Assembly (NCBI RefSeq): GCF_036365525.1
Contig: NC_090404.1
Span: 6,758,001-6,822,000 of the forward strand
DNA from: Heterodontus francisci
Lineage: Eukaryota
DNA length: 64,000 bases
Reading direction: 5' to 3'
Part shown: positions 4,351-41,580 of the stretch, piece by piece
Position numbering within the stretch: the first letter of the stretch is position 1
How the letters are laid out: each line of letters begins with the position of its first letter
Made by a program: the position numbers and the translations under genes
The notes under the pieces: model-generated
Database searches by the model: none
Seen by the model: only the letters and a program-made list of their open reading frames with translations
What the model was told of the DNA's origin: nothing

Positions 4351-4359
4351 TATTTAAAT
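4351..4359 (+). promoter_or_regulatory. TATA-like box of the IgM VH promoter
   Basis: TATTTAAAT about 95 bp upstream of the leader ATG. No proximal ATGCAAAT octamer is seen. A TCRB-decamer-like AGTGATGTGG sits at 4261-4270. Confidence 0.55.
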
Positions 4360-4449: not shown

Positions 4450-4495
4450 ATGAGGTCGGCGATTTCTCTCTGTCTGTTACTGGCTTTCTTATCCC
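4450..4495 (+). CDS. IGHV: IgM VH leader exon (MRSAISLCLLLAFLS, phase 1)
   Basis: ATG at 4450, hydrophobic signal peptide, GTGAG donor at 4496, in frame with the V exon. Confidence 0.95.
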
Positions 4496-4624
4496 GTGAG
4501 TAGTTTTTGCTGTCCGAGTCTCTCACTGTTACCGTCTCAGTGTTAGTCTCTCTCTCTGGAATGTGACAGAGTCAGGAATCATTTCACCACGATTAGTCCT
4601 CGGGTTTTTTGATATTTTTGACAG

Positions 4625-4942
4625 GTGTCCATTCGGATGTCGTGTTGACTCAGCCAGAGGCAGAGACCGGGAAACCCGGAGGCTCCCTGAAATTGACCTG
4701 TAAAACCAGCGGGTTCGATCTTGGCAGCTACAGCATGCACTGGGTCCGACAGGTTACCGGACAGGGGCTGGAGTGGATAGTTTACTACTATACTTCATCC
4801 AGCAACAACTATGCCCCAGAGATTAAAGATCGATTTGCTGCGTCCAAAGACACTTCAAACAATATCTTCGCTTTGGACATGAAGAAACTGAAGACCGAGG
4901 ACACCGCCATCTATTACTGTGCCAGAGTACTACGTGGGTTGG
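4625..4942 (+). CDS. IGHV: IgM VH exon with germline-joined D sequence (VD/VDD)
   Basis: AG acceptor at 4623-4624. Encodes [22 protein letters not shown]...WVRQ...DTAIYYCAR, then GTACTACGTGGGTTGG with no V-type 23-RSS, then a 12-RSS. Open frame, with both Cys and the Trp present. Confidence 0.93.
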
Positions 4943-4970
4943 CACAGCAGTTACAGTCAATACAAAAACT
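4943..4970 (+). other. 12-bp-spacer RSS (D 3' type)
   Basis: CACAGCA + GTTACAGTCAAT (12 nt) + ACAAAAACT. Confidence 0.92.
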
Positions 4971-5296
4971 CCCTCAGCACTAATTAATGAGTCTGGGTCA
5001 GTGCTCGCTTTTACAATCCAACTGTATATGCAGTGAAGTACTATTTGTGTGCAGCACTGTCCACCTAGCACAGTTTATTATGGATAAACTGATTAATTAT
5101 TCATTCATCAGTTGGTGATTTCAATAATTGCTGATATGTTACTGTGTGAAATATAAAACATCAGGGAAATTAATAAAGAGTGAAAAGAATCATTAACACA
5201 ATTATAATTTTACAAAGAACCATCATGATTTTATTTTGCCACTGGAGTGTGGATATTTAAAATAATGATGGATTTCTCTCTATTCTGTGCAGAGTC

Positions 5297-5335
5297 GGTT
5301 ATTGTGTGACCCAGCCCAGGGAATGTAACAATGTG
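5297..5335 (-). other. 23-bp-spacer RSS of JH
   Basis: Plus strand GGTTATTGT + 23 nt + CAATGTG, immediately 5' of the J coding sequence. Confidence 0.9.
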
Positions 5336-5383
5336 ACGCCATGGACTACTGGGGACAAGGGACCATGGTGACTGTGACTGCAG
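5336..5383 (+). CDS. IGHJ: IgM JH segment (AMDYWGQGTMVTVTA)
   Basis: WGQG motif and phase-1 GTAAG donor at 5384. Confidence 0.95.
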
Positions 5384-8267
5384 GTAAGAAACATTCATTT
5401 ATTCAGTAACTGTTTTATTTGTGTTTTTATTTATATTGCTGTTTATTTTAATGATAACTTACTTCACTGAAATGTGGACTCGGTGGATTCCGTATTGAGA
5501 TTTGTTGCGATGTTTCATGTGATTTGGCTGCAAAGGGATTATAGAATTTAATGTGATTTGGTGTTTATTTGTTGATGGGACTGTGTCTGGGCTACTTTAA
5601 ATACCGAACTGTTATTAAACTGTTTGACATTTCTGTAATGATTTATCTTGCTGACATTTAGTCGCTGCAGGTTTTCTAGTCTAGCGCAAACAATAAGTAT
5701 TTAAATATGTTTGAAATAAAATTATAGGCAGAAAGCTTCAACGGTTAAAAATAGTCTTACAATATTTTGATCTATCTTTATTTGTGGGACTTAAATTGCA
5801 ATCTATCAATCTACTGCTCAGGAATGCAATGTAATACAATGAATTTTGATGTAATTAAAAGCTACATAAAGAACAAACTTGCAGCTTTGGTCAGATTTAA
5901 ATTAATATATTCTTAATTATTATAATGCTGTGATATCAGGCAATATCAATGGACTATGCTATAGTCTCATATTAATTTATTAAACATGTTCTGTCCACCA
6001 ATAGTTCTGCGACCATTGTTTTATATATATGATCATTTTAATAATTAGTTAGGTCAGGTATAGGCGAGCTCGGTGGATTCTGCATTGAGATTTTTTTTGC
6101 AATATTACATTTCATTCTGCAGAAAGTATTTGTAGAATTAAGCTGCTTTCCATGAAATGTACTGTGGCGGGAATCAGTTCCTCAGTGATGTGATTTGGTG
6201 TTTATCTGCTGAAGAGAGTGTGTTAATTTGAATCAGTAAAATTTGTGAAACAGTTTGATGTTTCTACATTGTTTAATCTCGAGCGAGCGGCTGCAGATTT
6301 TCTGATCGAATTGAAACGTTCTACGTGTTTAAAACTGTTTGAAAGAAATGAGAAATAATATTTTAAGATATTTCATGGCATTTTAAAAATTTAAGTGATA
6401 ATTATAGGTTAAACGATAAAACCATGGTTTGTGACGTGAAAGTACGTGAAATGTTACTGCAATTACAAGCTGCATAATTGGCAGGTTTGCAGATTGGAGA
6501 GTAAAGTTAATGTAATTCAAACAGTTTTACTGCGGCAATATCTCATCATATAAACCAAATATGCTTTAATATTAACATCGATTCATTATTCATTAATCGA
6601 CTTTCACCGTTCTGGTGATCAGAAATGTTATGGGCTGGAGACAATTTTAATTTATGCTTGAAATTATTTCAATAAGAGTGTACTTATTCTCGTGCTGTGT
6701 TTAGTTTGATGAACGATTTTGAATTAATTGTTATATTTCTGATTATAACAGGTGAATTATAGCTTGTATTTACTTATAACTTCAATAGGAGTTGTAAATT
6801 GCAGTTCGTCAGTGCAATATATCTGTCCGGTTATTACATTCTTTGCGTGCAGCCCAAACCATGTTGTTCCTGAAATGTCATTTGTTGTTGGATAGTGAGA
6901 TAATTATCACTAATCTCATATTAACCATTTTCCCGGGACAGGAAGTTGTTGCCAGTCAAAGAATTGTTCATATGATTTTATTTAAATTGAAGAAACTTGC
7001 AAACTGCGTAAGGCTAGAGACAAACAAATAACACCTTGAAATTCAAGCAGATTCAATTAATTACAAAAGGTTAATGTTAGTTTTGAATTCAGTAACAAAA
7101 TCCTGTCTCCCACAGTTATGCTGCACACAGGATAGAATTATAGACAAAGAACAGATTATACCTGAGTGTTATGCTTAATTCTTATCAAATATTAAATTGA
7201 TCAGCAAAATCTCGGCCATATTTACTCATTAAGTTTGAAATGTCGCTGGATGATGTGAAAGAATTATTCTCGTCCAATTTTGCAGTGATCATTTTGGAGC
7301 TTCTTTCAATAAAAAATACAATATATTTACCAATTAATTTACGGGGATTGTGTGCATTACGAGAGTAAAATATAAAAACATTGTCTGATTAAATAGATGC
7401 ATGCCCAGTTACTGATCGCAAACTGACCGTATGTTTTTGATTTTTTTCTTAAATGGTTAAGATTTATGACAATATTTAAACACCAAAGTCCTGCTTTCAC
7501 AAACAGACAATGTTACAGCCCATGAACAGTTAGTGAGATGTGACCCTGGCCGGGCTTGAAACTATTTAAAATATTCCACTCCTAAATCCATCGTGTGAAA
7601 TACTCGCTGAGACTAGACGGAGTTTATGATAGATCAACACATTCAGAGACATGTGCAGTTTACAAGTTTGTGGATTGAAAGCAGGGCGGGAGTAGAAATT
7701 ATTGTTAATTTCAAATTATTGAACTGTGATTCGATTTAAGTTAAAGTAATATATTTTTCTGAAAATTTTCATCTATTAATATGACGTCTATTTTTTAATA
7801 TTGATTAAGTGTCATCATAATTAAATTAAACCCGATAATTTCACAGAAACTGGTCTTGAATTAACATCAACTAATGTTCAAAATTACAGTGTAAAATCAG
7901 GTAACCTAAATATTAACCTGGAATATAATAGCGCTAATTCAGTAAACATAAATGACCTCCTCGGATTCCAATGAGTGCAATATCGCAAGGGCCGGAGAGA
8001 ATTTTGAATTATGTCTAAAAATAATTTAGAGAACAATATATTTCTTACTCAACTGTTCTCAGCTGATTTTAATTAACTTTGTGTATTGCTTCAATTAGTT
8101 TTTGGTAACATTTAGTTATGAAATTGTATCAAACCAGTGGGTAATCGGTTTGCAATTTAATGTTTCCTGATTTTCTAAATTCTTACTCTGTCACTGAATT
8201 GCTGTCACGGACATCAAAGTTTCCTGAATGTGGACTGTTTTGATGTACTCATTTTTACGGAAACTAC

Positions 8268-9608
8268 ATCACAGAATCACAGAAGAATACAGTGCAGAAG
8301 AGGCCATTCGGCCCATCGAGTCTGCACCGATGCATTAAAGACACCTGACCTGTCTACCTAATCCCATTTGCCAGCACTTGTCCCATCGCCTTGAATGTTA
8401 TGACGTGCCAAATGCTCATCCAGGTACATTTTGAAGGATGTGAGGCAACCCGCCTCGACCACCCTCCCAGGCAGTGGCATTCCAGACCGTCACGATCCTC
8501 TGGGTAAAAAAGTTCTTCCTCAAATCGCCCTTATACCTCCCGCCCCTCACCTTAAACTACCGTCCCCTCGTAACTGACCCTTCAACTAAGGGGAACAGCT
8601 GCTCCCTATCCACCCTGTCCATGCCCCTCATAATCTTGTACACCTCGATCAGGTCACCCCTCAGTCTTCTCCGCTCCCGTGAAAACAACCCAAGCCTATC
8701 CAACTTCTCTTCACAGCTTAAATGTTCTATCCCAGGCACCATGCTGTTGAATCGCCTCTGCACCCCCTCCAGTGCAAACACATCCTTCCTATAATGTGGC
8801 GACCAGGATTGCACACAGTACTCCAGCTGTGGCCTTACCAAAATTCTGTACAACTCTAACATGACCTCCCTGCTTTTGTAATCTATGCCTCGATTGATAA
8901 AGGCAAGTGTCCCATATGCCTTTTTCACCACGTTATTAACCTGCCCTTCTTCCTTCAGAGATCTATGGACAAACACGCCAAGGTCCCTTTGTTTCTCAGA
9001 ACTTCCCAGTGTCAGGCCATTCACTGAATACATCCTTGTCACATTACTCGTTCCAATGTGTATCACCTCACACTTTTCAGCGTTAAATTCCATCTGCCAC
9101 TTTTCTGCCCATTTAACCATCCTGCCTATATCTTCCTGTAACCCAAGACTCTCAACCTCACTGTTAACCACTCGGCCAAACTTTGTGTCATCCGCGAGCT
9201 TACTGATCCTACCCCCCACATAGTCATCGATGTCGTTTATATAAATGACAAACAATAGGGGACCCAACACAGATTCCTGTGGTACGCCAGTCACTAAAAC
9301 AACCGTCTGACATCACTCTCTGTCTCCGACATCTAAGCCAATTTTTAATCCACCTTATCAAGTTACCTGTATCCCATGTGCATTTGCTTTCTTGATAAGT
9401 CTCCCATGTGGGACCTTGACAAAGGCTTTGCTGAAATCCATGTAAACTACATCAACTGCACTACCCTCATCTACACACCTGGTCACATGCTCAAAAAATT
9501 CAATCAAGTTTGTTAGGCATGACCTCCCTCTGACAAAGCCATGCTGACTATCACCTAATCACATTTTGCCTCTCCAAGTGGAGATAGATTCTCTCATTCA
9601 GAATTTTC
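8268..9608 (-). mobile_element. 5'-truncated CR1-like (HER1-type) LINE, RT fragment, in the J-CH1 intron
   Basis: ORF 8557-9294 GVPQESVLGPLLFVIYIND...SKLADDTK...RPQLEYC, with a short tandem-repeat 3' tail. Confidence 0.9.
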
Positions 9609-11019
9609 GTACACGTCTTTAAGATTGCAAACAGACAGGGAGAAACATTTGGAGGTTGAAGGGATTTTGGAAATGACTATCAGTTTAATTTCAAAGAGCG
9701 TACAGACTTGGAGTGGTCACAATTTGTCAATTGATAAATTAGAATCAAACAGCTTCATTGAAATTGACAGATTGAACAGATCTAACTGCTGAGAGCTCGA
9801 TTGTTGCACCGTTTGTGCCTGTTCAGTTTTTGTGCGCCTGCTTACTGTGTCGGGACGAGGAGCCCTCCCTACAGGCTGTAAACAGTCTGATTCGTTCTCC
9901 TACAACTTGATCTATTTATTTAAGAAGCTTGTATCTGTGAGAAACCTAAAATGTTGACTTTACGTTTGATGAGGCGCCTCAGCAATGAGATCAGTATTCC
10001 AGTCTGTGACAACAGTTCAAAATCATGACAGACAAACTGTAGAAGGAGATTTGGTCAGTTTGATTCGGCAATGCAGGGGAAGCTTTGCTGCATGCTTAAT
10101 GCATACTGTAAATGTCCTGGATCCGTTTGATGAGGCAAGCGTAGAGGGAGAAATTACTCTGTACGTAAACCTGGTTCAACCTGTCCTGGATGTATTTGAT
10201 GGGACAGCGTAGAGGGAACTATTTTTTTAAATATTAAACTAGTGCTGCACCTGACCCAGAGTGAACGTGTAGTGTGGAGGCAGCTTTCCTCCGAATATAA
10301 CACTTGCGATATCTGACCTTACAGCTCATGGCAGGGCCGGACAAGGGGGTCTTTACTCTTTCGCTTAACTTTCCTGTACCTGACCTGAGAGTGTTTTCCC
10401 AACAGTGTTGAAGGATCCTTTGTCTGCATCTAACTTAGAACTTGTGAGTTCTTGACCCAGATACATGAAAATAAATTGTTCCATTGCCCAGATAAAACAA
10501 TGCACATTAATTGGTATTAATATTCTTTCATGGCCAAATTTTAATAAGTTAAAAATATTTAAAAATGTTAAGCATCAGATAATAATTGAATGAAATTGGT
10601 CTGATTTTGAGAGCACTTTCAGAACAAACAGTTGCAGGAAGTGACTGTAACGGTCCAGAGAACAGCACCTGTTCTGATCTGATGAGAGGCTGAAAGACCT
10701 TTTGACGATTTAAATGGAGAAACGCGAAGAGTCCTGCTCCAAATAACCATCATGATAATCTCATGTTGAAAGCCAGCATTTCGTTCAAGTATTTTCAAAA
10801 GGTAACAGGCAGTGATAAACTCTGATGAGATGCTGTTATTGGATTGGGTCACAGCAGAGGGCACAAAGCCACTGAAGTAAGCTTCTGTGTAACTTTTGAA
10901 GTGATACAGTTAGCCTGCAATCAATGTCAATCACAATAAACTTTAAATCTCTGACAGTATCTGATTGACTCATTTGTATTAAATCCCTCAGATCCTCTTA
11001 TTTTAAAAATCCTCTTACA

Positions 11020-11349
11020 TTAGATTAGGAATACAGAACTGAAACAGGCCCACCGAGTCTGTGCCGAACATCAACCACCCATTTATACTAATCCCACATT
11101 TCTACCAAACATCCCCACCTGTCCCTATATTTCCCTACCACCTACCTATACTAGTGACAATTTATAATGGCCAATTTACCTATCAACCTGCAAGTCTTCT
11201 GGCTTGTGGGAGGAAACCGGAGCACCCGGAGAAAACCCACACAGACACAAGGAGAACTTGCAAGCTCCACACAGGCAGTACCCGGAATCGAACCCGGGTC
11301 CCTGGAGCTGTGAGGCTGCGGTGCTAACCACTGCGCCACTGTGCCGCCC
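11020..11349 (-). mobile_element. HE1-type tRNA-derived V-SINE
   Basis: GGGCGGCACAGTGGCGCAGTGG (A box), GGTTCGATTCC (B box), V-SINE core and CR1-like tail. Absent at the paralogous site near 63695. Confidence 0.88.
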
Positions 11350-11759
11350 ATTACAACAAGCAATAAAAACATATGCCACAGAGATGTTCAAATTTATGAA
11401 GCCTTTCCTCCCATTGAATTTGGAAGAGCTAACTCTACTAAGTCGGTTAGGATCACAGAATCTTCTCGTACGTAATGTGGCCATTCAGCCCGCCATGCCT
11501 GTGTTAGTTCTTAAAGAGCTCTCCAATTTAATCCGACAAGCCATTTCCCCTCTCATAACCATGCAAATTAGTCTCCTTCTAGGACATGTCCTGTTGCCTT
11601 GTGCATTCCAGATGCACTTACAGGGCCTGCACAGACACGACGGGTTGAATGGTCTCTCTTTGTGCTGTAACCGTTCTATGCTTCTTTGAAAATCACCCTC
11701 TGCAAGAAAAGAGACTTCCTTCTGCAGCCACCACCCCGCCCACACTCCGTTTTGTTGCC

Positions 11760-12380
11760 AATTATTTATTTTGCCACTGAACCACTTGCCATAGGAAACC
11801 GTTTGTACTTATCTGCTATATCAGAACATCCCATAATTTTGAATATGCCTATTCGGTATCCAGCAAAGGAGAACATTTCGACTTGTATAATCACTCTATG
11901 TAACTGAACTCCCTCATTCCTGACATCATCCTGGTAAACTCCCTCTGCACTCTCCCCAAAGCCTTGACCTCCTTCCAAAAGTGTGATGGCCAGAATTGTG
12001 CAAAAAATGCTTGAGCCTAATCAGTGATTTGTAAAGCTTTAATATGACTTCCTTGTTCTTTGTATTCAATAATCCATTTTACAAGACCAAGTGTTCCATT
12101 TGCTTTCTTAACCGTCTTCAAAACATTGTGAATATGCACCTCATGCCCCTCGACTGTTTTACCCCCTTCAAAATAGTACCACTTACATTGCATTTGCTTT
12201 CTATGTTGTTCCTCAAAAACTCCAGCACTTCACATTTAACCGAATTAAATTGCATCTGCTCTGTCTCTGAATATTTCACCAGTCTGTCTATGTCCTCCTG
12301 AACTCTGTTGCTATCCTGCTCACTATTTGTTTCGTATCATTAACGAACTTCGAAATTCTACTCCCCAAACCCATATCCAC
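11760..12380 (-). mobile_element. Old decayed CR1-like fragment shared with cluster 2 (62670-63260)
   Basis: Degenerate CR1 RT C-terminal sequence present in both paralogous introns. Boundaries approximate. Confidence 0.6.
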
Positions 12381-13273
12381 ATCATTATATGAAACAAAAA
12401 AAACAATAACACTACGACCAACCAAGGGGGATCACAATGCTTAATTCTTTCCAGACAGTTCACTCTCTGCTTCCTGTACCGTCGCAGGTTAACACCATCT
12501 CTTTAACCCATGCAGTTCTATTTTCTGAATGTCCTCTTATGTGGTATGTTATCTAATGTCATTTGAAAGCCCATATGTCCAACCTTGATGCTACCAACAT
12601 CGACAATCTCTTTTCCATACTGTTGGTGAGCGAGCTTTCAATATCTGACCAATAAGCCTCAAGTGTTTGAATTGTCCACACAAAACAGAAGTGAGAGTTG
12701 ACCATGTCATCAATAACACTTCAGGAACTTGTGTCCTTCCTTGCCTGGAACCTACTGATATTCACTCGAAGTATAATGTGTAAGTAATGTCAATATCAGA
12801 TATCTATAGAAGAAACCTGTCCTGACGTTCACGTTATGGTCGGTGCAAGCAACAAGAAGATGTGTCCGTAACGACACAGTCAGCAGCACCAGTTCTCACT
12901 GGTGAGGGGTGGGAAGATACTTTGGAAAATTAAATGGACCATTTCAAGAACAACATTTCAAGAGACGGATTTTTAGGAATCGGATTTAATTCGTATTATT
13001 AATTGAGCTGGAGGGAGAAGCAAACTCGGGAGAGATCCATTCAGTAGAATAAGATAGAACACAAATCACAATCTTCAAGTACTCAGAAGGAAAGTGATAT
13101 TCAATGCCGAGTCATCTAAAACTTTAATTCCAGAAAGGAGGTTGTGAAAGATTCCCTCTGAAATCTGTGTACTAAATGATTCAGTCCATGTTTCAAAGTA
13201 GACTTCAACTATTTATTGAAAAAGTTCTTTATTGTTGTGGGAATATAGAAGATTAAAATGAAGTCTGGTAGAG

Positions 13274-13610
13274 TTTAGTTTAGATATACAGCACTGAAAC
13301 AGGCCCTTCGGCCCACCGAGTCTGTGCCGACCATCAACCACCCATTTATAATAATCCCATATTCCTGCCATATCCTCACCTGTCCCTCTATTTCCCTACC
13401 ACCTACCTATACTAGGGGCAATTTATAATAGCCAATTTACCTATCAACCTGCAAGTCTTTTGGCTTGTGGGAGGAAACCGGAGCACCCGGAGAAAACCCA
13501 CGCAGACACAGGGAGAACTTGCAAACTCCGCACAGTCCGTACCCAGAATCAAACCCGGGTCCCTGGAGCTGTGAGGCTGCGGTGCTAACCACTGCGCCAC
13601 TGTGCCGCCC
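13274..13610 (-). mobile_element. HE1-type V-SINE
   Basis: Same A/B boxes, core and tail as the other copies. Absent at the paralogous site near 61762. Confidence 0.88.
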
Positions 13611-13857
13611 AGGCGTGATGTGAATCACGAATGTTTACCCAGAAATTCAGAAACCAATTTGCCCAGATCAGTGAGTTGGACTGCAGAGGGCACTGATTTA
13701 AAATCAGCGTGAAAGGAATGAAGGAAGAGGGTATGAATCTACTTTTCTACACAGGGGTTGTTAGGATCTGGGATGTCCTATCAGAAAGAGAGCTGTAAAC
13801 AGAATCCAAAACAGCTGGATAAAATGGAGCTTCAGAAAAGAAGATTAGGAATTGGAA

Positions 13858-14069
13858 TAAAAACAAGAAATGTTGGAAATACTCAGCAGGTCTGGCAGCA
13901 TCTGTGGAGAGAGAAGCTGAATTAACGTTTAAGGTCAGTTCTGATGAAGGGTCTGACCTGAAACGTTAACTCGGTTTCTGTCTCCACAGATGCTGCCAGA
14001 CCTGCTGAGAATTTCCTGTATTTCTTGTTTTTATTTCCGATTTCCTGCATCCGCAGTATATTGCTTTGA
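13858..14069. mobile_element. Penelope-derived inverted-repeat (hairpin) insert with hammerhead-like core
   Basis: Arms AAAAACAAGAAATG...AACGTTT / AAACGTTAAC...TTCTTGTTTTT. Flanked by ATTAGGAATTGGAA (13844-13857) and ATTAGTAATTGGAA (14070-14083). Empty site in the paralog near 61540. Confidence 0.8.
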
Positions 14070-14794
14070 ATTAGTAATTGGAAGGTCAGCGGGATCGCTG
14101 GAGTGATCTTTCACAGGCTTGATGGACCGAATGGCCTCTTTCTCTGCTATCATTTCTATTATTTTATAATCCTGGGTCATGTACATGCTCGGATTTGTTG
14201 TAGGTTTTTTATGGGAAAATAATGAAATGACTTTGCCTGGGAGTCAAGTTTCGAGTTATGAACTCTGTTTATAAGCACACAATGCGATGCCTCTTTTTAA
14301 GAGTAGTCGCAATTTGACGGTGGGGAAAGGTGGGGGTGGGCGTGGGTTGGAGGGGGTGGGGGTGTTTGGAGAGATGGGGGAACCCAGTATTCAATTTGCA
14401 GAGAGTAAATTTCCCAAAACTGCAATTAATAAATGCCGAGTGCTTTTTTTTTTTTTTGGCAAAGTGCTGTTGGTTTGGAAATAATTACTGGTGGAATAGC
14501 GGGGAAACTCCTCTTCCAGATTAGTCCAATGGAAGGTACTTTATTGCGAGGACTTCTAAAGGCTCTTACTTTTGTAATGTGACAGGTCCTGAAAGAGAGG
14601 TGTTTTCCTGACCAGGGCACCGACATGCGATTATCATTAAATGATGGAACTGATAGAAGCACAAATGCGGATGAAGGTTTTAATCGGAAAATATTAGAAT
14701 CAGTTTCTAGCTGGAGTGAAATTCCGAGTTGTCTGGTTACTTAATAAGCAAAAATCACAGAGTCTAACTTGTTCAATCTGCCATTCTTTCCCAG

Positions 14795-15091
14795 CGACAC
14801 CGTCTCCCCCAACCCTTTACGGCCTGTGCTCCTGTGAACAACCCAACACCGGTGGCTCCGTGGCCTACGGCTGTTTGGCGATAGACTACATCCCCCAAAT
14901 CACCAGCGTTTCCTGGAAGAAAGATAAACAGACGATCACCACTGGACTGAAGACTTACCCATCAGTGATGAACAAGAAGGGAACCTACACCTTGAGCAGC
15001 CAGTTAACCATCACCGAGTCAGAGGTGGGAAGCAGCAAAATCTACTGCGAGGTTCAACGTGGAGAGTCACTCTGGATCAAAGAAATTCCAG
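14795..15091 (+). CDS. IGHM: IgM CH1 exon
   Basis: AG/GT flanks. [14 protein letters not shown]...YGCLAIDY...SWKKD...IYCEV...KEIP. 297 nt, open. Confidence 0.95.
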
Positions 15092-15302
15092 GTTAGTGTT
15101 GTGGAAACTGTGAAAGACAGAAAAGCCATAATGATCTTTTGTTAAGCTTTGGCTATATCACATTTAGAGCATTGTGCACAGTTCTAATTCCTGGAGATTC
15201 CAGTTAGTGTCTGCTTGACATCAAATAATCTGTTAAAATGTAAGAACAGTTTGCAATAGTTATTAATTTCAACGAGAAATGTCTAACATGTTTTTCTTGA
15301 AG

Positions 15303-15620
15303 ATTGTCAAGGTGACATCATCCATCCAACTGTTATCCTCACCCAGAGTTCCAGTGAAGAAATCACAAGCAGCAGATTTGCAACTGTCGTGTGTTCAATC
15401 ATCGATTTCCATCCAGAGTCAATAACCGTGAGTTGGTTGAAGGATGGACAACCTATGGATTCGGGCTTCATCACCTCTCCTGCCTGTGAAGTGAACGGAA
15501 ACTTCTCAGCGACCAGTCGGCTGACAGTCCCCACTGGGGAATGGTTCACCAACACGGTCTATACCTGCCAGGTCTCTCATCAAGCGGTCACCCAAAGCCG
15601 AAACATCAGCGGATCTCAGG
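15303..15620 (+). CDS. IGHM: IgM CH2 exon
   Basis: AG/GT flanks. [11 protein letters not shown]...[20 protein letters not shown]...YTCQVSH. 318 nt, open. Confidence 0.95.
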
Positions 15621-15839
15621 GTAAGAGACACAAACCGAGAAAGCTCCAGATCATTCTGTTCCCTGATGAATATCAAAGGGAGGAATTTATTGGAATTAAT
15701 ACAAATCACAGAACAATTTCTAATTTACCATCATGTAGGGTTTTTTTTTGCTTTGTTGCACTGTGAGTGATGAATTAGATTTGCTCATGGTTCAACATGT
15801 TATTACATCACCAAATAATGGTTCCCTCTGCTTTGATGC

Positions 15840-17791
15840 AAGAACACAAGAAATAGGAGCAGAAGTAGACCATTCAGCCCATCGAGTCTGCTGCGCCATT
15901 CAATACGATAATGGATGAGCTTGAGCTTCAATTCCACTTTTCTACCCGCACCCCATGTCCCTTGATTCCCTTACAGACCAAAAATCTATCTCTCCCAGCC
16001 TGAAATGTATTAAATGATGGAGCATCCACAACCGTCGGTGGCAGAGAATTCCAAAGTTTCACAACCCTTTGAGTGCAGCAATTTCTTCTCATCTCAGTCC
16101 TGAATTATTGGCTCCTTATCATGAGGCTGTTTTCCCGTGTTTTAGAGTGCCTGACCAATGGGAACAAATTCTCAGCTTCTCTCTATCAAGCCATTTCAGA
16201 ATCTTGTATATCTCAATTAGATTGCCTCTCATTCTTCTGAACTCCAGAGAATGTAGGCCCAATTTACTCAGTCTGCCGTCACCGGACAAGCCCATCAACC
16301 AATGGGGCCAATTTAGTAAATCTTCGCAGCACTGCCTCAAGTACAAGTACATCCTTTCTTAAATGTGGAGGCCAAAACTGCACATAGTATTCCATTTGTG
16401 ATCTCACCAAAGCGCTGTGCAATTTTGGTAAGACTTCTTTATTCCTGTGCTCCAATCTCCTTGCAAAAAAGGCCAACATGCCATTTACCTTCCAATTAGC
16501 CGGATGCACTTGTATGTTGAATTTGTGCGTTCCTTGTTCGAGTACCCCCAAGTCTCTTTGAACATCAACACTAACCATTTTCACTCCTTCCAAACATATT
16601 TGCCTTTTCTATTTTTACGACCAAAGTGAACAATTTCAGAAATCCCTATATAATACTCAATTTGCCAACTTGTTGACCACTCACTTAACTTGGCTATATC
16701 TCTTTGCAGCCTCTCCATATCCTCCCCACAGCTTACCTTTCCACTGAACTTTGTATCATCAGCAAACTTAGATACATTACTCTCTGTCTTTTCTTCCAAG
16801 TCATTAATATAGAGTGTAAATAGCTGATTCTTGTGGCACCCCACTATTTACTGCCTTCCAACTTAAAAATGCCTCATTTATGCCCACTCTCTGCTTCCTG
16901 TCTGTTTACCAATCCTTTGTCGGGGCTGATATACTACCTCCAGCACCATGAGCCCTAACCTTGCCTATTATTCTTTTTTGTGGCACCTCACCGAATGCCT
17001 TTTGAAAATCCAGGAATACTACATCTGCTGGCTCCCCTTTATCTACCCGACTCGTTACATCCTCAGAAAACACTAACGCATTTGTCAAACAGCATCTCCC
17101 TTTAGTAACACCACGCTGACTTGTTCTAATCATACTATGCTTTTCCAAGTGTAATGTGAAGACTTCTTTAAAAATAGTTTCCAGCATCTTTCCAACGACT
17201 GACGTCAGGTTAACTGGCCTGTAGTTCCTTTTTTTTGCTCTACCTCCTTTCTTGAAAAGCGGCGTTACTTTTGCCAACATCCAAGCTGATGGGACCATTC
17301 CTGAATCTAAGGAATTCTGGAAAGTCATAACCATCACATCCACTATCTCTGCAGTTATCTCTTTTAGAATCCCAGGATGTAGGCCATCTGGTCCTGGGAA
17401 CTTGTCAGATTTTACTCTGCCAAGTTACTCCAATACCTTTTCTCAGCTGATATCAATATCCTTAATTTTCTCACTCTTTTTAGCCCCAAGGCTACTGCCT
17501 GTTTCTGGTATGGAACTTGTGTCTTCTACTGTGAAGACAGACACAAAATATTTGTTCAATGCCTCTGCCACTTCCTCATTCCCCATGATGATTTCTCCTG
17601 TCTCTGCCTCTAAGGGACCAACGTCTACTTTAGCTACTCTGTTCCTTTTTATGTACTTCTAAAAGATCTTCCAAACTATTTTTATATTGATGGCTAGTTT
17701 ACTCTCAAATTCTATTTTATTCCCCTTTTTATCAACTTTTTGGTGGCCCTTTGCTGTTTTCTAAAACTCCCAATCCTCAGTCTTACATCTA
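15840..17791 (-). mobile_element. CR1-like LINE fragment in the CH2-CH3 intron
   Basis: RT pieces NYRPVNLTSVVGK, DFQKAF, SKFADDTK, MEYYVQFW. TTGATG flanks both ends. Absent in the paralog near 59830. Confidence 0.88.
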
Positions 17792-17929
17792 ATTGATGTC
17801 ACATAGTGAGTGAGGTGGCCTTGATATCAGGTTTATCTTGAGTTGGCTGATCATATTCAGAGCGGCAATAAGTGGCAGGACGTTTCCTGGTTACAGCCTC
17901 GGGATCAAGCGCCAGAAAGAGTATCGATT

Positions 17930-18460
17930 TAGAAAACTGTGTTCAATTCAGAACTCCGGAGTTTAGGAGGAATCTATTGGCCGTGGGAGTGGTGCAACAG
18001 AAACTGACTTGAATTGTAGCGGGGCTGAACGGGTTAAATTAAGCGAACAGATTTAACAGGCCAATCTGGCATTGCTTTCAGGATTGAAGGGGGGTGTAAT
18101 TGAGGTGTTTAAGATGTTTACTGCAATTGATGGAGTCGATGGAGAAAAAAATATTTCCTCTGGTGAGGGACTCGAGAGCAAGGGGGCATAACTTTCAAAT
18201 TAGACCAAGGTTATTCAGGGATGATATCAGGAAGCTAACATTTACACGGTGGGTATCAGTGATCTGGAATTCTCTCCCTCAACTCGCTCTTTATGTTTGG
18301 CATCAATTGTAAATTTTAATGTTGAGATTGATAGATGTATGCCAGGCAAGGCTATGAAGGATTGCATATGGGGAGACGGGATTAAGATGCAGGTCAGCCA
18401 TTGCCTAATTGAATGGCGGAACAGGCTGGAGGGGCTGAATGTCCTACGCTTTTTCCTTTG
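17930..18460 (+). mobile_element. Old decayed CR1 3' fragment shared with cluster 2 (59160-59690)
   Basis: FPLV...SRARGH...WNSLP peptide remnants and a CR1 tail. Present in both paralogs. Confidence 0.6.
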
Positions 18461-19201
18461 TTTCTATTACTGCCCTCTTGTCAGATCGCCTTCTGACTGC
18501 AGACTGACATATGAGGCGTTCTGACTCATGACAGATATTCGGAAACTGCCTCACACTGTTCTTGAAAGTTATTCTGCACTTCAAAAAGATTCCTTAGAAG
18601 TGCATTTTCCCGATCTTTCACCCCTCCTCCGATTGGTTCCGACATATTTTCCTCTCCCCAAATATCGTGACATGGCGCCAGAAAATTAAAGTTGTTTCCT
18701 CTTGGGCCTAAAATTCAGGATATCATTTGACTCTCGTTATGAACCAGTGTGAATTAGATATTTAGCTCGTGGGTGTGAGAGCCATTATATTCAGAGGACA
18801 TGTCATCCGGGGCAAGGACTGTTAGACGGGCGGAAATACGAACAAACGAACATCCGAATTAGGAGCAGGAGTCGGCCCTTCGAGCTTGCTCCGAAGGGAT
18901 TTTGGGAAGAATTTTATTCAGTGCACAACACAGTTTCTCCCGCAATTATTCGATTTTTACGCCGGGTACTTGCTTCAAAGCCCCATTACAGGCTTCTTAG
19001 GGTGCAAGTGCACAGTGCATGTTATAGAATCACCCGGAAGCTTTTTCAGGTTGTTGTCCTTCCAATAAACGATATTATTTAAGCAACAGCTTGAGGTCGA
19101 TATCTCGAAGTTGATTTATTCTCCGAGAGACAGTGAAGGCTGAATATTGGTGTCTGATTCTGAAGATGAATCTTTGTTTTATTTCCATTTCTGTTTTACA
19201 G

Positions 19202-19510
19202 TTCCTTGTTCCTGCAATGATCCAGTAATTAAACTACTGCCACCATCAATAGAACAGGTCTTACTGGAGGCGACGGTGACCTTAACCTGCGTCGTGTCTA
19301 ATGCTCGTTATGGCATCAACGTGTCCTGGACACAAGAACAGAAGCCTTTGAAATCTGAGATTGCCGTGCAACCCGGAGAGGATCCCGACAGTGTGATCAG
19401 CACCGTAGACATCTCGACACAATCCTGGCTGAGTGGGGCTGAGTTCTACTGCGTGGTGAGCCATCAGGATCTGCCGACTCCTCTCAGAGATTCCATCCAC
19501 AAGGAAAAAG
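19202..19510 (+). CDS. IGHM: IgM CH3 exon
   Basis: AG/GT flanks. [20 protein letters not shown]...LTCVVS...[19 protein letters not shown]. 309 nt, open. Confidence 0.95.
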
Positions 19511-20012
19511 GTGAGCAGTGAGATTGAAGCAATAAGTGAGAGGTTGTGCTTATTTCCGGTGTTTGTTCAAGGAACAATTCGTCCTATTAAGTGTTCTCAT
19601 GGATTATTCTGATAATTCAATTGTAATTCCACAAACGAAACCCTCTGGAACCAGAGGTGATGCATTTAAGGGGAAGCTAGATAAGTAGATGAGGGAGAAT
19701 TGAATAGAAGGAGATGAAGTGAGGTGGGGGGAGGTTCGTGGGCGGCATAAACACCAGCAAAGGCTAGCTGGGCTGAATGGCCTATTCCTGTGCTTTTTAC
19801 TTCTATGTAATTTTCCAGTCTAATCCTTTAAGTTCCCTGCGAATGGGGTTGCATCCACCTCTGCTCCGGGCTGGAAAACAGGACCGGCTGCAGAGGGGAA
19901 AAGGAAAACCTTTAAAATTCAGCACAATGCACATTCCTCTCACAGCTAATCACCGGTTTCATTGTCTCTGGAATTCTCCAGTTTATTGACATTTATTTTA
20001 ATTTTTCTGCAG

Positions 20013-20404
20013 TAAAAGATTTGCGGGAACCGTTCTTGTCTGTCTTCCTGGCCCCGGCAGAAGATGTCGCCGCTCAGAGGTTCCTCTCCCTCACCTGCTT
20101 TGTGAGAGGTTTCTCCCCCCGACAGATCTTCGTCAAGTGGACCGTCAATGACAAGTCGGTGAATCCCGGCAACTACAAGAACACCGAGGTGATGGCGGCG
20201 AACGACAATAGCTCCTTCTTCATCTACAGCCTGTTATCCATTGCAGCGGAGGAGTGGGCCAGTGGCGCTTCTTACTCCTGTGTTGTGGGACATGAAGCGA
20301 TCCCCTTGAAGATCATCAACAGAACAGTTAATAAATCCAGCGGTAAACCGAGAATTGTGAACATTTCCCTTGCAGTGTTGGACACCGTTAATTCATGTCA
20401 ATGA
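20013..20404 (+). CDS. IGHM: IgM CH4 exon plus secretory tailpiece (membrane-form donor after 20342)
   Basis: KDLREP...[10 protein letters not shown]...WTVND...[11 protein letters not shown]...[23 protein letters not shown]-stop. Penultimate Cys and NIS sequon. Internal G|GTAAA donor. Confidence 0.95.
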
Positions 20405-20432
20405 GAATCTCTTGATTGCATTTTAATTCTTA

Positions 20433-20448
20433 AATAAAAATCAATAAA
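20433..20448 (+). terminator. Secretory-form polyadenylation signals
   Basis: AATAAA at 20433-20438 and 20443-20448, just after the stop codon. Confidence 0.75.
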
Positions 20449-21499
20449 TACCTTTTCCTCCAATCACGATTTAAATACACAAGCGCTCAATTAATTCTGC
20501 TTCCCACATTTGCTAAGGATAGGTCTATTCATCTAAAGTAGGATATTTGCAGATCTCGGGCCCAAGTCTTGTACAATCAGTACTCCCAGCTCAGATACCA
20601 CAGGTTAGTGACAGAGCAAAACTGATTCATTTCCAGGATTCCGTCAGGTACCATCAGCAACTTAGCTTTCCTCCTGCCTTGTCGGGGGGATATATGAAAA
20701 TTTCCCTTCTCCAACGAGCAAACAAAGCGCATTTATATATCGGTATTCCTGCTTCTCGTGTTGTCCACCCCTTCAGTATTGAGGTCAGTTTGCAGTTTCA
20801 GCATCAAATGCTCTGGGAACTGAACCGAGGGCCACACACAAGTACGATCTGTACTCACAATTCTCCATCAGAAAGAGGGGAAAGTACAATTTATTAACCT
20901 ACTGTAGATGCACTTACTAAACAGAGAGGGGGAATGGGTAATTGTTAGTCCACTGTTACTCCGTTTCACCAATAGAGAGCGAAGGCAATTGTGGACCTAC
21001 TGTAATAGGCCCCCCACCCCTCACCAATTCCTCGACAGAGAAAGGAGTAAGGGCATTTGTTAACCCACTATACTCCCACTACCCCTGCAGAGAGATTGGA
21101 AGCCAACTGCTCTTCATGATCGGATTCAATTGCCATCAGTTCAACGTCGGCTTCTGGTTCACTGGGCGAAGGTTTAAACGTTCCACTTGGGAAGCATATT
21201 GCAAAATATATCTTTATGCAACATGATATCTTAAAACTTTTCCCTGTTGGCCACGTTCCCTGACAGATTAAATTCCAATAGTCTAAATCTAACTGGTGAT
21301 TTAATCATCCACTATACCTGTTGTGCCGAGGCCCATCATTTTCATTGTTGCATTTATCCAGCTGATGTCGTATTGCATCTCGCACAGAATAGATTTACGC
21401 ACAGAACGATAAAGAATATTCTCTGCAGTGCACACCGTCGGTGCTAGACGCGATTATTTGTACTCTCTGAAACTTCGAATAATGATAAAAATGTGCAGG

Positions 21500-22760
21500 C
21501 ACACGGACATAAACACACACATAAACACACTCACATGCACAAACACACATATGCATGTGCACGCACAAACAAACCCAAACGCAGATATAAAGATTCCCAC
21601 AGTCACATACGCAAACACGAACATAAATGCACACGTTAGTACAGTCTCACGAAAGCAGAAACCTTGACATAAAATCAGACACTATCATACACATTAACAC
21701 ATAGATGGACACATAGGGCGGCACAGTGGCGCAGTGGTTAGCACCGCAGCCTCACAGCTCCAGGGACCCGGGTTCGATTCCAGGTACTGCCTGTGTGGAG
21801 TTTGCAAGTTCTCCCTGTGTCTGCGTGGGTTTTCTCCGGGTGCTCCGGTTTCCTCCCACAAGCCAAAAGACTTGCAGGTTGATAGGTAAATTGGCTATAA
21901 TAAATTGTCACTAGTGTAGGTAGGTGGTAGGGAAATATAGGGACAGGTGGGGATGTTTGGTAGGAATATGGGATTAGTGTAGGATTAGTATAAATGGGTG
22001 GTTGATGTTCGGCACAGACTCGGTGGGCCGAAGGGCCTGTTTCAGTGCTGTATCTCTAATCTAAATACACTCGCATATTAACAGACTCACGTATATATGC
22101 ACACACACAGATAAACAGATATCTTAACACATTAACACACTCGCTCACAAACAAATAGACACCAATATTAACATGGATACACAGGCACGCACATAAGCAC
22201 ATACATTAGCACACATGCACACATAAACACACATTAACATATGCATTGATACATAAACGTAGACATCAACAAAAACACACATTAGCACACTCATGGGGAC
22301 ACAAGCAGGCATAAATAACACATTATCACACACATGGACATATAAACACACATTGGCACACAGGGAAACATAAGCACATCCATCAACACAGAAACACACA
22401 CATTAACACACGCATAGGGACTCAGACACCCACATAAATAAACATTAACCGCTCATAAACAAAGATGGACAGAGACATACACACACACATCCACACACAC
22501 CACATACACACATACACACACACACACACATACCACACACACAGACGGCTCCTTTATTAGAAAGATCAATGCACATTGGCACATTAACTCAAATTAACAT
22601 ACATAGACAGGAATTAACATATAAACACGCGAATTGACACACACATGTGCACCTAAACAACTACATTGTCCCACACATTAACACTCACACACACACGTAC
22701 AGATGGAAACAGAGAGTGATGCAAAGGAAGATACTCGTACACATTTGCACAAACAATAAA
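21500..22760. repeat. CA-rich low-complexity tract (paralog about 54900-56150)
   Basis: Imperfect (CA)n/ACACATTA runs, interrupted by a SINE. Confidence 0.8.
21716..22064 (+). mobile_element. HE1-type V-SINE, full length
   Basis: A box TGGCGCAGTGG, B box GGTTCGATTCC, V-SINE core and TCTAA tail. Confidence 0.9.
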
Positions 22761-23356
22761 TGCACAGACAAAAAAGCCAGGCTGTTGACGAAAGTAGAAT
22801 TCAAATGCACTAATTGAATTAACACCATCTCCAACAATTTCCCGAATGCATGGTGGACCTAAAAAGATAATGAAGCACAATTCCCACTTCGAAACTGAGG
22901 AAAATAAATGATTTTCACGCGACATTCATCACATACAAACAAGAATGGAACTCACATCCGAGCTTTTACTCAGCACAATTGACAATCTACAAATAAGTAG
23001 ATATCCGAACCCATCTTCAAAATAATTGTTATTGATCAGCAAACCTCCCACGATATCTCATATCTCACCATAATAATCCCTTAAGAAAAACCGCAACTGG
23101 ATCTAAAATAAAAAAGCGCCTGAAACTGAAGAAAAACTGACACAGTTTCCAATAAGGCCTGGAGGACGATCATAAAGGAAGAACGATTGTGGAGTTGGCA
23201 ACAGAGATAGATTACTGAGCATGATTAACTTAATAGCCACACATTGAAAATTAAATTAGAGAACCAATAATAGCTTAAGGAAGAGACATTCGAATGCAAA
23301 ATATATGCTGGATTAATAAACTATTTGAATATATTTCCTCCTCTATATCCGCGTAG

Positions 23357-23484
23357 ATTCCTCAGACCACATCTGGATTGAAGACAATGAGGAAGAGAGC
23401 GGCAACATCTGGACAACCGCTTCCACATTCATCATCCTGTTCTTCCTGAGCATTTTCTACAGTGCTGCCCTCACTCTGGTGAAG
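23357..23484 (+). CDS. IGHM: IgM TM1 exon
   Basis: [43 protein letters not shown], with the conserved antigen-receptor TM motif and AG/GT flanks. Confidence 0.95.
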
Positions 23485-23623
23485 GTGAGAATATTCAATC
23501 CACTCACACTTCAATTTAACTGAAGTTGTTTCACATATCTCTAAAAGTTTCATAAATTTAACCTTGAGATGAATGTCCCGAACCACGAAATCTCTGCTTC
23601 ACTCCTTTATCCCTCTTTTACAG

Positions 23624-23632
23624 GTCAAGTGA
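23624..23632 (+). CDS. IGHM: IgM TM2 exon (VK-stop)
   Basis: Pyrimidine tract + CAG|GTC AAG TGA, giving the canonical KVK tail. Confidence 0.9.
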   Translation, partial: VK

Positions 23633-24752
23633 TCGATTGAATTGCGCTGCCCTGGAGTTTCCTCGTTTTTAAACATTTCTGCATAACGAAAATACTCTAA
23701 CAGTAAAATGCCTTCATTTTATGGTTGTGAATCTGTAGCTGAGAGAATCATAAATAGTATTTCCGTTTTCATCTTTAAAATATGTGGGATAATCGTGGCT
23801 CTAATGTAACTGCATCTTTGAGTTTCACCTTCATTTGAATTTCATGTGTAAATAAGTAACTATTCCTTATTCACATGTGGTCCCTTTTTATGTTGAGCCC
23901 CGTTTTCTCTTTCTGCTCTGTTTGTTTTACACAGAGCTGACAGCTCAGATCGTATGTGTTCTGTACTCAATGTGACGCAAATTTGTTATATTCATTTTGT
24001 ACCTTTTTTAAAATCCTCCCTGTAAAATGTTCTTTTTTAAAAAATTGTTTATAAATATTGAGTAACACATGGACTAACTTGGACTTGGCTGAATTCCTTG
24101 CCCGAAGAACCCTCGACACCGCTCCCTTTTCCCAATTACACGTTTCCTGACTTTCCTGACAGCTATTTTGCACCAGTCCTGTCCGGGTTGTGTTTAATCC
24201 CAAGTGTCTTGGGTGAAGGAGCTGCAGTGCCATCCAGAGTCCCTTCAGAGTAAAGACACCTTTCCTTCTGCCGTATTTTGCCAATCCCAGAGGCAGAATG
24301 ACCGGACAGTGACCAGGAGCACCTCACTGACTTCTCCCGTCTTATGGTCTGTCACAGTCATGTGCCAGGTTATATTAAAGAGCAGTGCTCTGCTCCATCG
24401 TAGTCTGATATATGGAGGAATACTGTCCCATCAAACTTTTCCAGGACAGGCACGGCAGAGGTTTGATAGATGAGCCTGGGGCACATCTGACACAAAAGAG
24501 AGCACAAATTGGAGGAATGATTCCAGGAGACTGAGGTCTATCAGATACAGAAACTCTGTCTTCACATTTTCTGTTATTCACACAACCCACACACTCCAGC
24601 TAATCTGCTTCACATGCACTTTCCACTTTTCTGTTATGCACACGCCAACTTTCTGCCTTCACCTTTTCTGCAATACCTGTAACCCCTGCCCCTCTGTCAC
24701 ATGTTTCTCTGATGACCTTTCTCTCTGTTCTACTCGATTCCGTCTGATACCA

Positions 24753-29270: not shown

Positions 29271-29313
29271 GAACACGGTATCTGTACGAAGAATGCCGAG
29301 GTATTTTTCTGTG

Positions 29314-30045
29314 TAGGTTTCAAGAAACAGTAGTACAGGGCGCTGTCAGCGAGCTGCAGCCCAGTCAGGATGAGAACAGCTAGAATTGTGAACGTTTCCA
29401 GAATGACCGTTAACTTCGTACATTCCATAGGAATATGCCTGAATTCCGAAAGTGGAAGCCATGTTCTGGCTCTGACGATAAAGCTGCACAGAAGACCTCA
29501 CATTGGAGTTTGAATAGATACAATTAATGCTCATCGAAACTCCTTCCAAATATTGGGCTTCTGTTGGCCACTGCCTGACAGAGTGTCCATAACTCACTCC
29601 TGCAAAAAATATTCCTGGTTAACCATGGATGCAGAACNNNNNNNNNNNNNNNNNNNNNNNNNNNNNNNNNNNNNNNNNNNNNNNNNNNNNNNNNNNNNNN
29701 NNNNNNNNNNNNNNNNNNNNNNNNNNNNNNNNNNNNNNNNNNNNNNNNNNNNNNNNNNNNNNNNNNNNNNNNNNNNNGCTTCTCATTTTTAAGGAAACCT
29801 TGGTGCGGAGACAAATGAAGCAGCCGAAGATGAATTGATTGACTAACAGGGGAAGAGTGGGATAGTTGGAAATATAATAATACAGGCAGATAGGTAGACA
29901 GAGAAGCTAATAGAACTAGAGGTAGGTGAATGTACGTCAGTTCTATCAGTTGTGGAATGTGCAGAAAGACGCAGTAATAAACACAAATATAACAATCAAA
30001 CAACAATACCAGAGGAGCCCAAAAAGCGAAAAGCTCAAACTCCAT
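29314..30045 (-). pseudogene. TCR alpha/delta-type V pseudogene 1 (V exon 29314-29599; putative leader 29997-30045 across the gap)
   Basis: CAG|GVSYGHSVRQWP...SINCIYS...VQLYRQ, a frameshift, then LTGLQLADSALYYCFLK. RSS remnant CACAG(TG lost) + 23 + ACAGATACC at 29277-29313. Leader-like MEFELFAFWAPLVLLF has a non-GT donor. Confidence 0.8.
29638..29777. other. Assembly gap (140 N)
   Basis: Run of N. Confidence 1.
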
Positions 30046-30084
30046 AATGGCCACAGTATCCCCACACTGGGACCCCGCAGTTCA

Positions 30085-31245
30085 ATATTCAGATAAAAGG
30101 TTAATAGGCAAGTTAAGGGCTTATTGAGTTGAGGGTAATATATTAACATGGATAGAGGATTGATTTATGGACAGGAAACAAAGAGTGGCCATGAATAAGG
30201 CATTTTCAAGTTGGCAGGCAGTGAATAGTGGAGTGCCACAAGGATAAGCTCTGGGGCCTCAGCTATTTACAATCTATATTAATGACATAGATGAAGAAAC
30301 AGAGGGTAATGTATCTAAGTTTGCTGCTGCTACAAAAATGGATGGAAAGGTAATCTGTCGGGAGGATACAGAGAGGCTGCAAAGAGATATAGACGGGTTA
30401 AGTGAGTGGGCAACAAGATGGCAGATGCAATATAATGTAGGGAAGTGTGAAGTTATTCGCTTTGGCGGTGAGAATAGAAAAGCAGAATATTTTTTTCAAG
30501 GTGTGAGACTTGTCAGTGTTGATGTTCAAAGAGACTTGGGTGTACTTGTGCAAGGAACACATACAGTTAACATGCAGGTACAGCAAGCAATTAGGAAGGC
30601 AAATGGCATGTTGGCCTTCATTGCAAGGGGATTGGAGTACAGGAATAAAGAAGTCTTACTAAAATTGTACAGGGTTTGGTGAGACCGCACCTGGAATACT
30701 GGTTGCAGTTTTGGTCTCCAGATTTAAGAAAGGATATACTTGCACTGGAGGCGGTACAGCGAATGTTCACTAAATTGGTCCCTGGGTTGAGAGGATTTTC
30801 TAATGATGAGAGGTTGAGTACATTGGGCCTATATTCTCTGCAGTTTAGAAGAATGAAAGGCGATCTCATTGAAACATTCAAGATTCTGACGGGGCTGAAT
30901 AGGATAGGAACTGTGAGATTGTATTCGTGGATCGAGGAATCTAAAACACGGGGACACAGTCTCAGGATAAGGGAACGATCATTTAGGACTGAGATGAGGA
31001 GAAATTACTTCATTCAAAGGGTTGTTATTCTTTGGAATTCTCTACCCAAGAGGGTTGTGGATGCTCCATCGTTGAATCATTTTTAGACTGGGTAGGCAGT
31101 TTTTTCGTATCTCAGGGAATCAAGGGATATGGGGAGCGGACAGGAAAGTGGAGTTGAAGTCTAAGATCAACAATGATTGTATTGAATGGCGGAGAAGGCT
31201 CTATGGCCCATATGGTCTACTCCTGCTCCTATTTCTTGTATCCTT
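30085..31245 (+). mobile_element. CR1-like LINE 3' fragment
   Basis: WQMQYNVGKCEV, RPHLEYWLQFWSP, WNSLP and a CR1 tail. Confidence 0.88.
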
Positions 31246-41503: not shown

Positions 41504-41580
41504 CATAGAGTCACAGAGAGATACAGCACTGAAACAGGCCCTTCGGCCCACAGAGTCTGTGCCCACCAACAACCACCCAT
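41504..41580 (-). mobile_element. Truncated HE1/CR1 3' tail inserted in CDR1 of V pseudogene 5
   Basis: GGGTGGTTGTTGGTGGGCACAGACTCTGTGGGCCGAAGGGCCTGTTTCAGTGCTGTATCTCT matches the SINE tails. Confidence 0.85.

What the first reader, a model, noticed from the sequence alone, without database searches (positions are those of the whole stretch)
4625..5383. Germline half-rearranged IgM (VD[D]-J) that still looks recombination- and expression-competent
Seen: YYCAR runs directly into GTACTACGTGGGTTGG and a 12-spacer RSS. There is no V 23-RSS and no V-D or D-D intervening DNA. JH with a 23-RSS lies about 390 bp downstream, and all C/TM exons, splice sites and poly(A) signals are intact. Established: shark IgM clusters are V-D1-D2-J, and germline-joined versions, attributed to RAG activity in germ cells, exist. 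Inference: this is a fixed coding joint (D1 remnant GTACTAC plus D2 remnant TGGGTTGG, or similar) that needs only one RAG event. It would give a semi-invariant CDR3 beginning CARVLRG.
Basis: partly seen in the sequence, partly recalled or inferred. Interest (0 to 1): 0.7.

Follow-up and report, generated by a model that had tools for sequence, protein, structure and literature searches.

The report
Half-assembled shark antibody gene, in use
This shark IgM gene has its V and two D pieces already fused in the genome, likely by the antibody recombinase acting in an ancestor's germ cells; such genes have been known since 1988, but RNA from one animal carries this fusion joined in frame to J, so this copy is likely finished and used in B cells, which earlier work did not detect.

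Summary
Confirmed. V runs into a 16-nt joint (4927-4942: nearly whole D1 plus 3 nt of D2), then a 12-RSS, 393 nt, a 23-RSS and JH. All Cmu and TM exons are open. The genome is horn-shark-like. Germline VDD-J IgM clusters are a class described in 1988. Nine of 47 IgM loci examined are VDD-J, and the scan noted dead ones before. This is the only one of the nine with no disabling lesion found. The new part is use. In 2 of 3 spliced-RNA runs laid on the joint, contigs carry it joined in frame to JH (CDR3 [12 protein letters not shown]), with no RNA over the RSS. A DNA run holds the unfinished form with no difference. Lee et al. 2000 state that expression of horn shark joined heavy-chain genes was not detected. 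Limits: one animal, one or two junctions, contigs only; a fully joined allele on the other haplotype is not excluded. A known kind of gene, with new evidence that it works.

The parts
4351..4359 (+). TATA-like element of the VH promoter
   Evidence: same in 6 of 6 aligned promoters, 93% mean column identity
4450..4495 (+). Leader exon
   Evidence: open, GT donor
4625..4926 (+). VH coding region up to YYCAR
   Evidence: open frame; 81% to H. francisci VH; nearest paralog 92.8% over promoter+V
4927..4939 (+). D1-derived part of the germline joint (one internal base missing against the nearest allele)
   Evidence: nearest allele in 4 of 24 D1 read; 15 of 20,000 shuffles reach the score
4940..4942 (+). 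D2 3' remnant (TGG)
   Evidence: all D2 alleles read end in TGG before CACAGCA; only 3 nt, so assigned by position
4943..4970 (+). D2 3' 12-spacer RSS
   Evidence: heptamer and nonamer as in most split clusters
5297..5335 (-). JH 23-spacer RSS
   Evidence: used in vivo as inferred from RNA joints
5336..5383 (+). JH
   Evidence: open, GT donor
14795..15091 (+). Cmu1
   Evidence: open; 90% to H. francisci Cmu
15303..15620 (+). Cmu2
   Evidence: open
19202..19510 (+). Cmu3
   Evidence: open
20013..20404 (+). Cmu4 and secretory tail; internal TM splice donor after 20342
   Evidence: open; closest hit H. francisci Ig heavy C, 90%
20433..20448 (+). Two AATAAA signals, secretory form
23357..23484 (+). 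TM1 exon
   Evidence: open
23624..23632 (+). TM2 exon with stop
24050..24055 (+). Membrane-form poly(A) site, variant TATAAA
   Evidence: AATAAA at this position in 4 of 4 other clusters

Best explanation
This is an IgM minilocus whose V, D1 and D2 are fused in the assembled genome, likely by RAG acting in an ancestor's germ line, and RNA contigs carry that fusion joined in frame to JH, so B cells likely finish it with one 12/23 D-to-J cut and express it. Shown: the anatomy, the open reading frames, the unfinished form in a DNA run and the finished form in RNA contigs. Inferred: RAG made the germline joint; the D-J step is somatic; protein is made. The result would be a heavy chain with a fixed CDR3 stem (ARVLRG, usually L next) and diversity only at the D-J join and from hypermutation. 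It most likely acts as an ordinary low-diversity member of the repertoire; no special role is shown.
For: Joint ends lie at or within 3 nt of where heptamers sit in split clusters (V end, both D1 ends, D2 3' end), with the RSSs cleanly gone and the leader intron kept. Germline status: no unjoined twin among 45 V regions compared (nearest 92.8%); the joint is single-copy; DNA run X1 has a 234-nt contig, depth 3, over 4910-5102 with 0 differences; another VDD joint sits in 4 duplicated copies with a shared stop codon (L006-L009). Two nearby germline products keep head-to-head signal joints, a RAG hallmark (L023; L024-L027). Use: joint 4943->5337 in X3 (depth 544.7) and X8 (2.45), and 4940->(1 nt)->5335 in X8 (2.5); both are in frame for any inserted letter. 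These runs show leader-V and J-Cmu1 spliced ends and zero depth at 4944-5062, so they behave as RNA. X3 has exact 59-, 68- and 72-nt contigs (depth 478-531) over V stretches that differ from every one of 46 other loci by at least 2, 5 and 5 nt. None of the four split clusters with the matching D1 allele has this J sequence, so a convergent somatic junction is unlikely.
Against: All runs are one sample, likely the one assembled, so they are not independent. They are contigs, their RNA status is the tool's guess, and no single contig links this junction to Cmu. Only one or two junctions were seen, and each is one substitution from a blunt VD-to-J join, so they may be one clone. The X8 contig leading into the joint has 3 differences in 4854-4910, equal to the distance to several paralogs; hypermutation, an allele or a chimeric contig cannot be told apart. 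The DNA contig has depth 3 only. The gene carries three framework changes absent from 15 of 15 split V genes compared (9 of 24 dropped by my motif filter) and a variant membrane poly(A) site, which may mean early decay. Eight of nine VDD-J clusters have lesions.
Confidence: 0.85

Rival explanations
1. The transcripts come from a fully germline-joined VDJ allele on the unassembled homologous chromosome, and the VDD-J copy here is idle.
For: Only one haplotype is held. The same junction occurs in X3 and X8, and both forms are one substitution from a single blunt join. Three fully joined VDJ clusters exist in this genome (L022, L031, L046).
Against: No such copy in the assembly. X8 shows two junction forms after the same VD joint. 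The RSS pair is intact and a clone shared between tissues of one animal explains the repeat.
Confidence: 0.08
2. The assembled VDD-J is a somatic intermediate from a lymphocyte; VDD-J is a common partial product in nurse shark thymocytes (PMC2435157, passages).
For: Shark blood or spleen DNA holds lymphocytes (general knowledge), and the supporting DNA contig has depth 3 from the same sample.
Against: Somatic joints differ cell by cell and would not form a consensus. No unjoined twin exists. The same joint is unfinished in DNA and finished in RNA of two runs. Other VDD joints here are duplicated and decayed, so germline.
Confidence: 0.03
3. The joint arose by RAG-independent deletions or by copying of rearranged DNA back into the germ line.
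For: One base of microhomology at V-D1 and one internal base missing from D1. Reinsertion of somatic products was proposed for catfish TCR (PMC6170632, passages).
Against: Two separate deletions end at RSS borders. The leader intron, D-J spacer and whole C region are in place. Precise signal joints in neighbouring clusters point to RAG.
Confidence: 0.04

Closest known systems
Partly germline-joined IgM clusters (VDD-J / VD-J) of horned shark and little skate (Kokubu et al. 1988, not readable here; described in PMC2193153 parts 1-2 of 3, and PMC5192425 passages)
   Same: Same V-D1-D2 fusion with free JH and its own Cmu, among split, VDJ and V-DDJ clusters. This genome also has a divergent-VH cluster with an inverted D1-D2 interval (L044), like the one those authors describe.
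   Different: [quoted passage not shown] Here RNA contigs show this copy completed in frame.
Nurse shark IgM1gj and germline-joined NS4 light chains (PMC2193156; PMC4279169 passages)
   Same: Germline RAG product that is expressed with restricted CDR3.
   Different: Those are fully joined and need no RAG; IgM1gj lacks Cmu2 and dominates in neonates. This gene keeps four Cmu domains and still needs D-J joining. The animal's age is unknown.
Somatic 2R intermediate VDD-J of nurse shark IgM miniloci (PMC2435157, passages)
   Same: Identical configuration, showing VDD-J is a normal step on the way to VDJ.
   Different: There it is cell-specific and mainly in thymocytes without transcripts; here it is fixed in the genome.
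IgNAR type 3 locus with germline-joined D segments (recalled, no call)
   Same: Partly pre-joined heavy-chain locus that is finished somatically and expressed with a narrow CDR3.
   Different: Different isotype, D-D rather than V-D-D join; not checked here.

Membership tests
Cartilaginous-fish IgM minilocus | One VH, D material, one JH and own Cmu1-4 with secretory tail and TM exons in one cluster | tested here: met
   90% identity to H. francisci Cmu
Germline VDD-J cluster | V fused to D1 and D2 with V, D1 and D2 5' RSSs removed | tested here: met
Germline VDD-J cluster | D2 3' 12-RSS and JH 23-RSS retained, J unjoined | tested here: met
Germline VDD-J cluster | Present in non-lymphoid or germ-cell DNA of several animals | tested here: inconclusive
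   One DNA run of the same sample, depth 3; strong indirect support; tissue unknown, no second animal
Germline VDD-J cluster | RAG origin (trimmed coding ends, P or N bases) | tested here: inconclusive
   Ends at RSS borders with trimming, no clear P or N bases in the germline joint; signal joints in neighbours
Functional (expressed) IgM gene | In-frame VDJ transcript | tested here: met
   Joints 4943->5337 (X3, X8) and 4940->5335 (X8); frames
Functional (expressed) IgM gene | Surface or serum protein | not testable with these tools
   no proteomic data
IgM1gj-type neonatal germline antibody | Fully joined VDJ and loss of Cmu2 | tested here: not met
   J is free and four Cmu exons are present
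IgM1gj-type neonatal germline antibody | Preferential expression early in life | not testable with these tools
   age and tissue of the runs are not on record

The most novel reading that the evidence does not exclude
This locus is kept by selection as a one-cut, semi-invariant IgM: needing a single RAG event, it wins the race among about fifty clusters in early B cells and gives a shared natural antibody with a 12-residue CDR3 starting ARVLRG, an intermediate between fully joined neonatal IgM and the open repertoire.
Probability: 0.15. Interest if true: 0.7.

Novelty: new member of a known kind. Interest (0 to 1): 0.42.

Why it matters
Since 1988 it has been unclear whether partly joined shark heavy-chain genes are fossils or working genes; Lee et al. 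2000 (PMC2193156) wrote that the lack of detected expression cast doubt on their significance. This locus gives a named, single-copy test case with a unique 16-nt tag and first evidence, in one animal, that it completes D-J joining and is transcribed in frame. It allows a direct test of whether needing one cut instead of three raises a cluster's share of the repertoire under heavy-chain exclusion, and whether a fixed CDR3 stem yields shared antibodies. I did not find earlier proof of VDD-J expression in nine literature searches, but key primary papers and reviews were not readable, so it may exist.

Tried and rejected
No RNA holder was on record in the run search; RNA status was the tool's guess. 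X7 showed no joint beyond 4933 in the listed rows (24 rows of table 5c hidden); X9 was laid only, whose joint table was cut and filled by paralogs. Neither is evidence either way. Contig depth was not used to rank this gene against other clusters. Promoter CpG decay was suspected and rejected: 6 CpG against 6-13 in 15 split promoters. The V tree left the finding in an unresolved fork, so no parent cluster or date can be given (45 rows, L037 and L044 not included). A PDB search did not tell whether the non-IgH V genes in the window are TCR, and the Atlas gave no answer. The protein search found no record with this CDR3. Kokubu 1988 (two ids), a guessed id for the IgM1gj paper and Hsu 2016 were not held; of Hinds-Frey 1993 only abstract and references were visible. 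No supplements were read. One search used exon ends off by one; one search corrected them.

Full report
Observation. The window lies at G000:C34:6758001-6822000 in a 6.0-Gb genome. Bases 4450-23632 hold a complete IgM heavy-chain minilocus. The V exon is open through YYCAR and continues into 16 nt (4927-4942), a 12-spacer RSS (4943-4970), a spacer, a 23-spacer RSS (5297-5335) and JH (5336-5383). Leader, Cmu1-4, secretory tail and both TM exons are open with GT/AG ends. The closest named C region is that of Heterodontus francisci at 90%, so I read the genome as horn-shark-like. The secretory poly(A) signals are canonical. The membrane-form site reads TATAAA where 4 of 4 other clusters checked read AATAAA.

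Parsing the joint. Split clusters read V-23, 12-D1-22, 12-D2-12, 23-J. Twenty-four D1 segments were read; four are GGTACTACAGTGGGT. The joint matches that allele from its second base to its end with one internal A missing, then TGG, the end of D2. V has lost 2-3 nt and one G is shared. No N bases are needed. D1 alleles of 14 nt exist in four split clusters, so the missing base may predate joining. Fifteen of 20,000 shuffles reach the same alignment score.

Census. From 41 V matches (40 of 84 candidates scored) and 40 J matches I examined 47 loci, a lower bound. They are: 24 split; 1 divergent-VH cluster with an inverted D1-D2 interval; 9 VDD-J; 3 VDJ; 1 each of V-DD-J, VD-D-J, V-DDJ and V-D2J; 1 inversional D1-J product; 4 orphan V copies ending in a signal joint; 1 unresolved. 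Of the nine VDD-J, L006-L009 share a stop in FR2, L015 has stops in V and C, L011 has a Cmu1 frameshift, L047 a TM1 frameshift, and L030 has no leader in the 330 nt searched upstream. Only the present gene shows no disabling lesion.

Is it germline? The joint occurs once in the assembly. No unjoined twin exists; the nearest promoter+V is 92.8% identical and the tree leaves its parent unresolved. A DNA run of the same sample has a contig over 4910-5102 with no difference at depth 3. VDD-J is also a somatic intermediate in nurse shark thymocytes (PMC2435157, passages), but such joints differ between cells and would not appear unfinished in bulk DNA and finished in RNA. Duplicated, decayed joints and precise signal joints nearby show germline recombination at this locus. 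A test in sperm or a second animal was not possible.

Is it used? Four runs guessed to be RNA show spliced leader-V and J-Cmu1 ends and almost no intron depth. Laying three of them on 4910-5400, which hides paralog joints, gave joint 4943->5337 in X3 (depth 544.7) and X8 (2.45) and joint 4940->(1 nt)->5335 in X8 (2.5), with no RNA depth over 4944-5062. Both are in frame: CDR3 [12 protein letters not shown], and ARVLRG(L/F)DAMDY. In the first, the extra C fits a P or N base with J trimmed by one. X3 also has exact 59-72-nt contigs on V stretches private to this gene at depth 478-531, which fits one expanded, little-mutated clone. X7 lists no such joint. Limits: one animal; contigs, not reads; both junctions are one substitution from a blunt join and may be one lineage; the X8 contig upstream has 3 unexplained differences; no contig links the junction to Cmu.

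Mechanism. Inferred step 1: RAG in an ancestral germ line joined V to D1 and D1 to D2. Shown: the product keeps a 12/23 pair. Inferred step 2: in a B-cell precursor one RAG event deletes 393 nt and joins JH. Shown: in-frame finished sequences in RNA. Predicted: an IgM heavy chain with a fixed CDR3 stem. I give this 0.85. The main rival (0.08) is a fully joined allele on the other haplotype. Three private framework changes and the variant poly(A) site suggest relaxed rather than special selection, so a dedicated innate-like role gets 0.15.

Comparison with the literature. Lewis and Wu 2000 (PMC2193153, parts 1-2 of 3 read) describe V DD-J, VDJ and V D1-D2J clusters in horned shark and skate, first reported in 1988. 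Reviews repeat this (PMC5192425, PMC4279169, PMC6170632; passages). Lee et al. [quoted passage not shown] Fully joined IgM1gj and NS4 genes are expressed in pups. Linkage of IgH clusters to TCR alpha/delta is published (PMC12227049, passages). Kokubu 1988 and Hsu 2016 were not held, and only the abstract of Hinds-Frey 1993 was seen; the IgNAR type 3 parallel is recalled, not checked. Earlier notes of this scan cover dead or differently joined copies in the same genome; none was listed for this place.

Verdict. The structure is a new member of a long-known kind. Its value lies in being the one intact VDD-J among nine and in the RNA evidence that it is completed and transcribed, which makes an old doubt directly testable. 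Interest 0.42.

Noticed in passing
L023 = G000:C34:4250963-4254265: Inversional germline rearrangement: the D1 5' 12-RSS is fused head-to-head to the JH 23-RSS (signal joint kept), the D1-J interval is inverted, and inverted D1 is joined to JH with 2 extra bases. Signal and coding joint both remain on the chromosome.
   Followed up: partly
L024-L027 = G000:C34:6699790-6730908, 27-58 kb before the window: Four near-identical orphan VH copies whose D1 5' 12-RSS is fused head-to-head to a foreign 23-RSS. Its flank is 84% like that of a degenerate non-IgH V remnant at window 32346-32462, suggesting a germline signal joint between an IgM cluster and a TCR-type V (label inferred). The reciprocal coding joint was not found. 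The copies lie in 99.9% identical repeats, so some may be assembly duplicates.
   Followed up: partly
window 29300-47800: Several non-IgH V-set genes and remnants (33040-33360 -, 40240-40540 -, 41280-41700 -, 45550-45650 -, 47600-47790 +), most with stops or repeat insertions and 3' 23-type RSSs, lie between two IgM clusters; TCR alpha/delta-like by inference only.
   Followed up: partly
window 54100-60870 (-) and L015 (G000:C34:6830135-6830881): A second IgM cluster, tail-to-tail with the finding, is also VDD-J but dead: stops in V, Cmu2, Cmu3 and Cmu4 and a Cmu4 frameshift.
   Followed up: yes
L044 = G000:C34:12957000-12960000: Divergent VH family member with the D1-D2 interval inverted (D1 flanked 12/12, D2 22/12), matching the hybrid-joint cluster described in PMC2193153.
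   Followed up: partly
L022, L031, L046: Three fully germline-joined VDJ exons with open frames and leaders. Their C regions and expression were not checked.
   Followed up: no
L016; L035: A V-[D1D2]-J cluster with open V (L016) and a 5'-truncated VD1-D2-J pseudogene (L035), so the joining steps occurred in the germ line in no fixed order.
   Followed up: partly
window 5064-5334: Low RNA depth over the D2-J spacer and J RSS in X3 and X7, partly with mismatches, likely unrearranged transcripts from paralogs.
   Followed up: no
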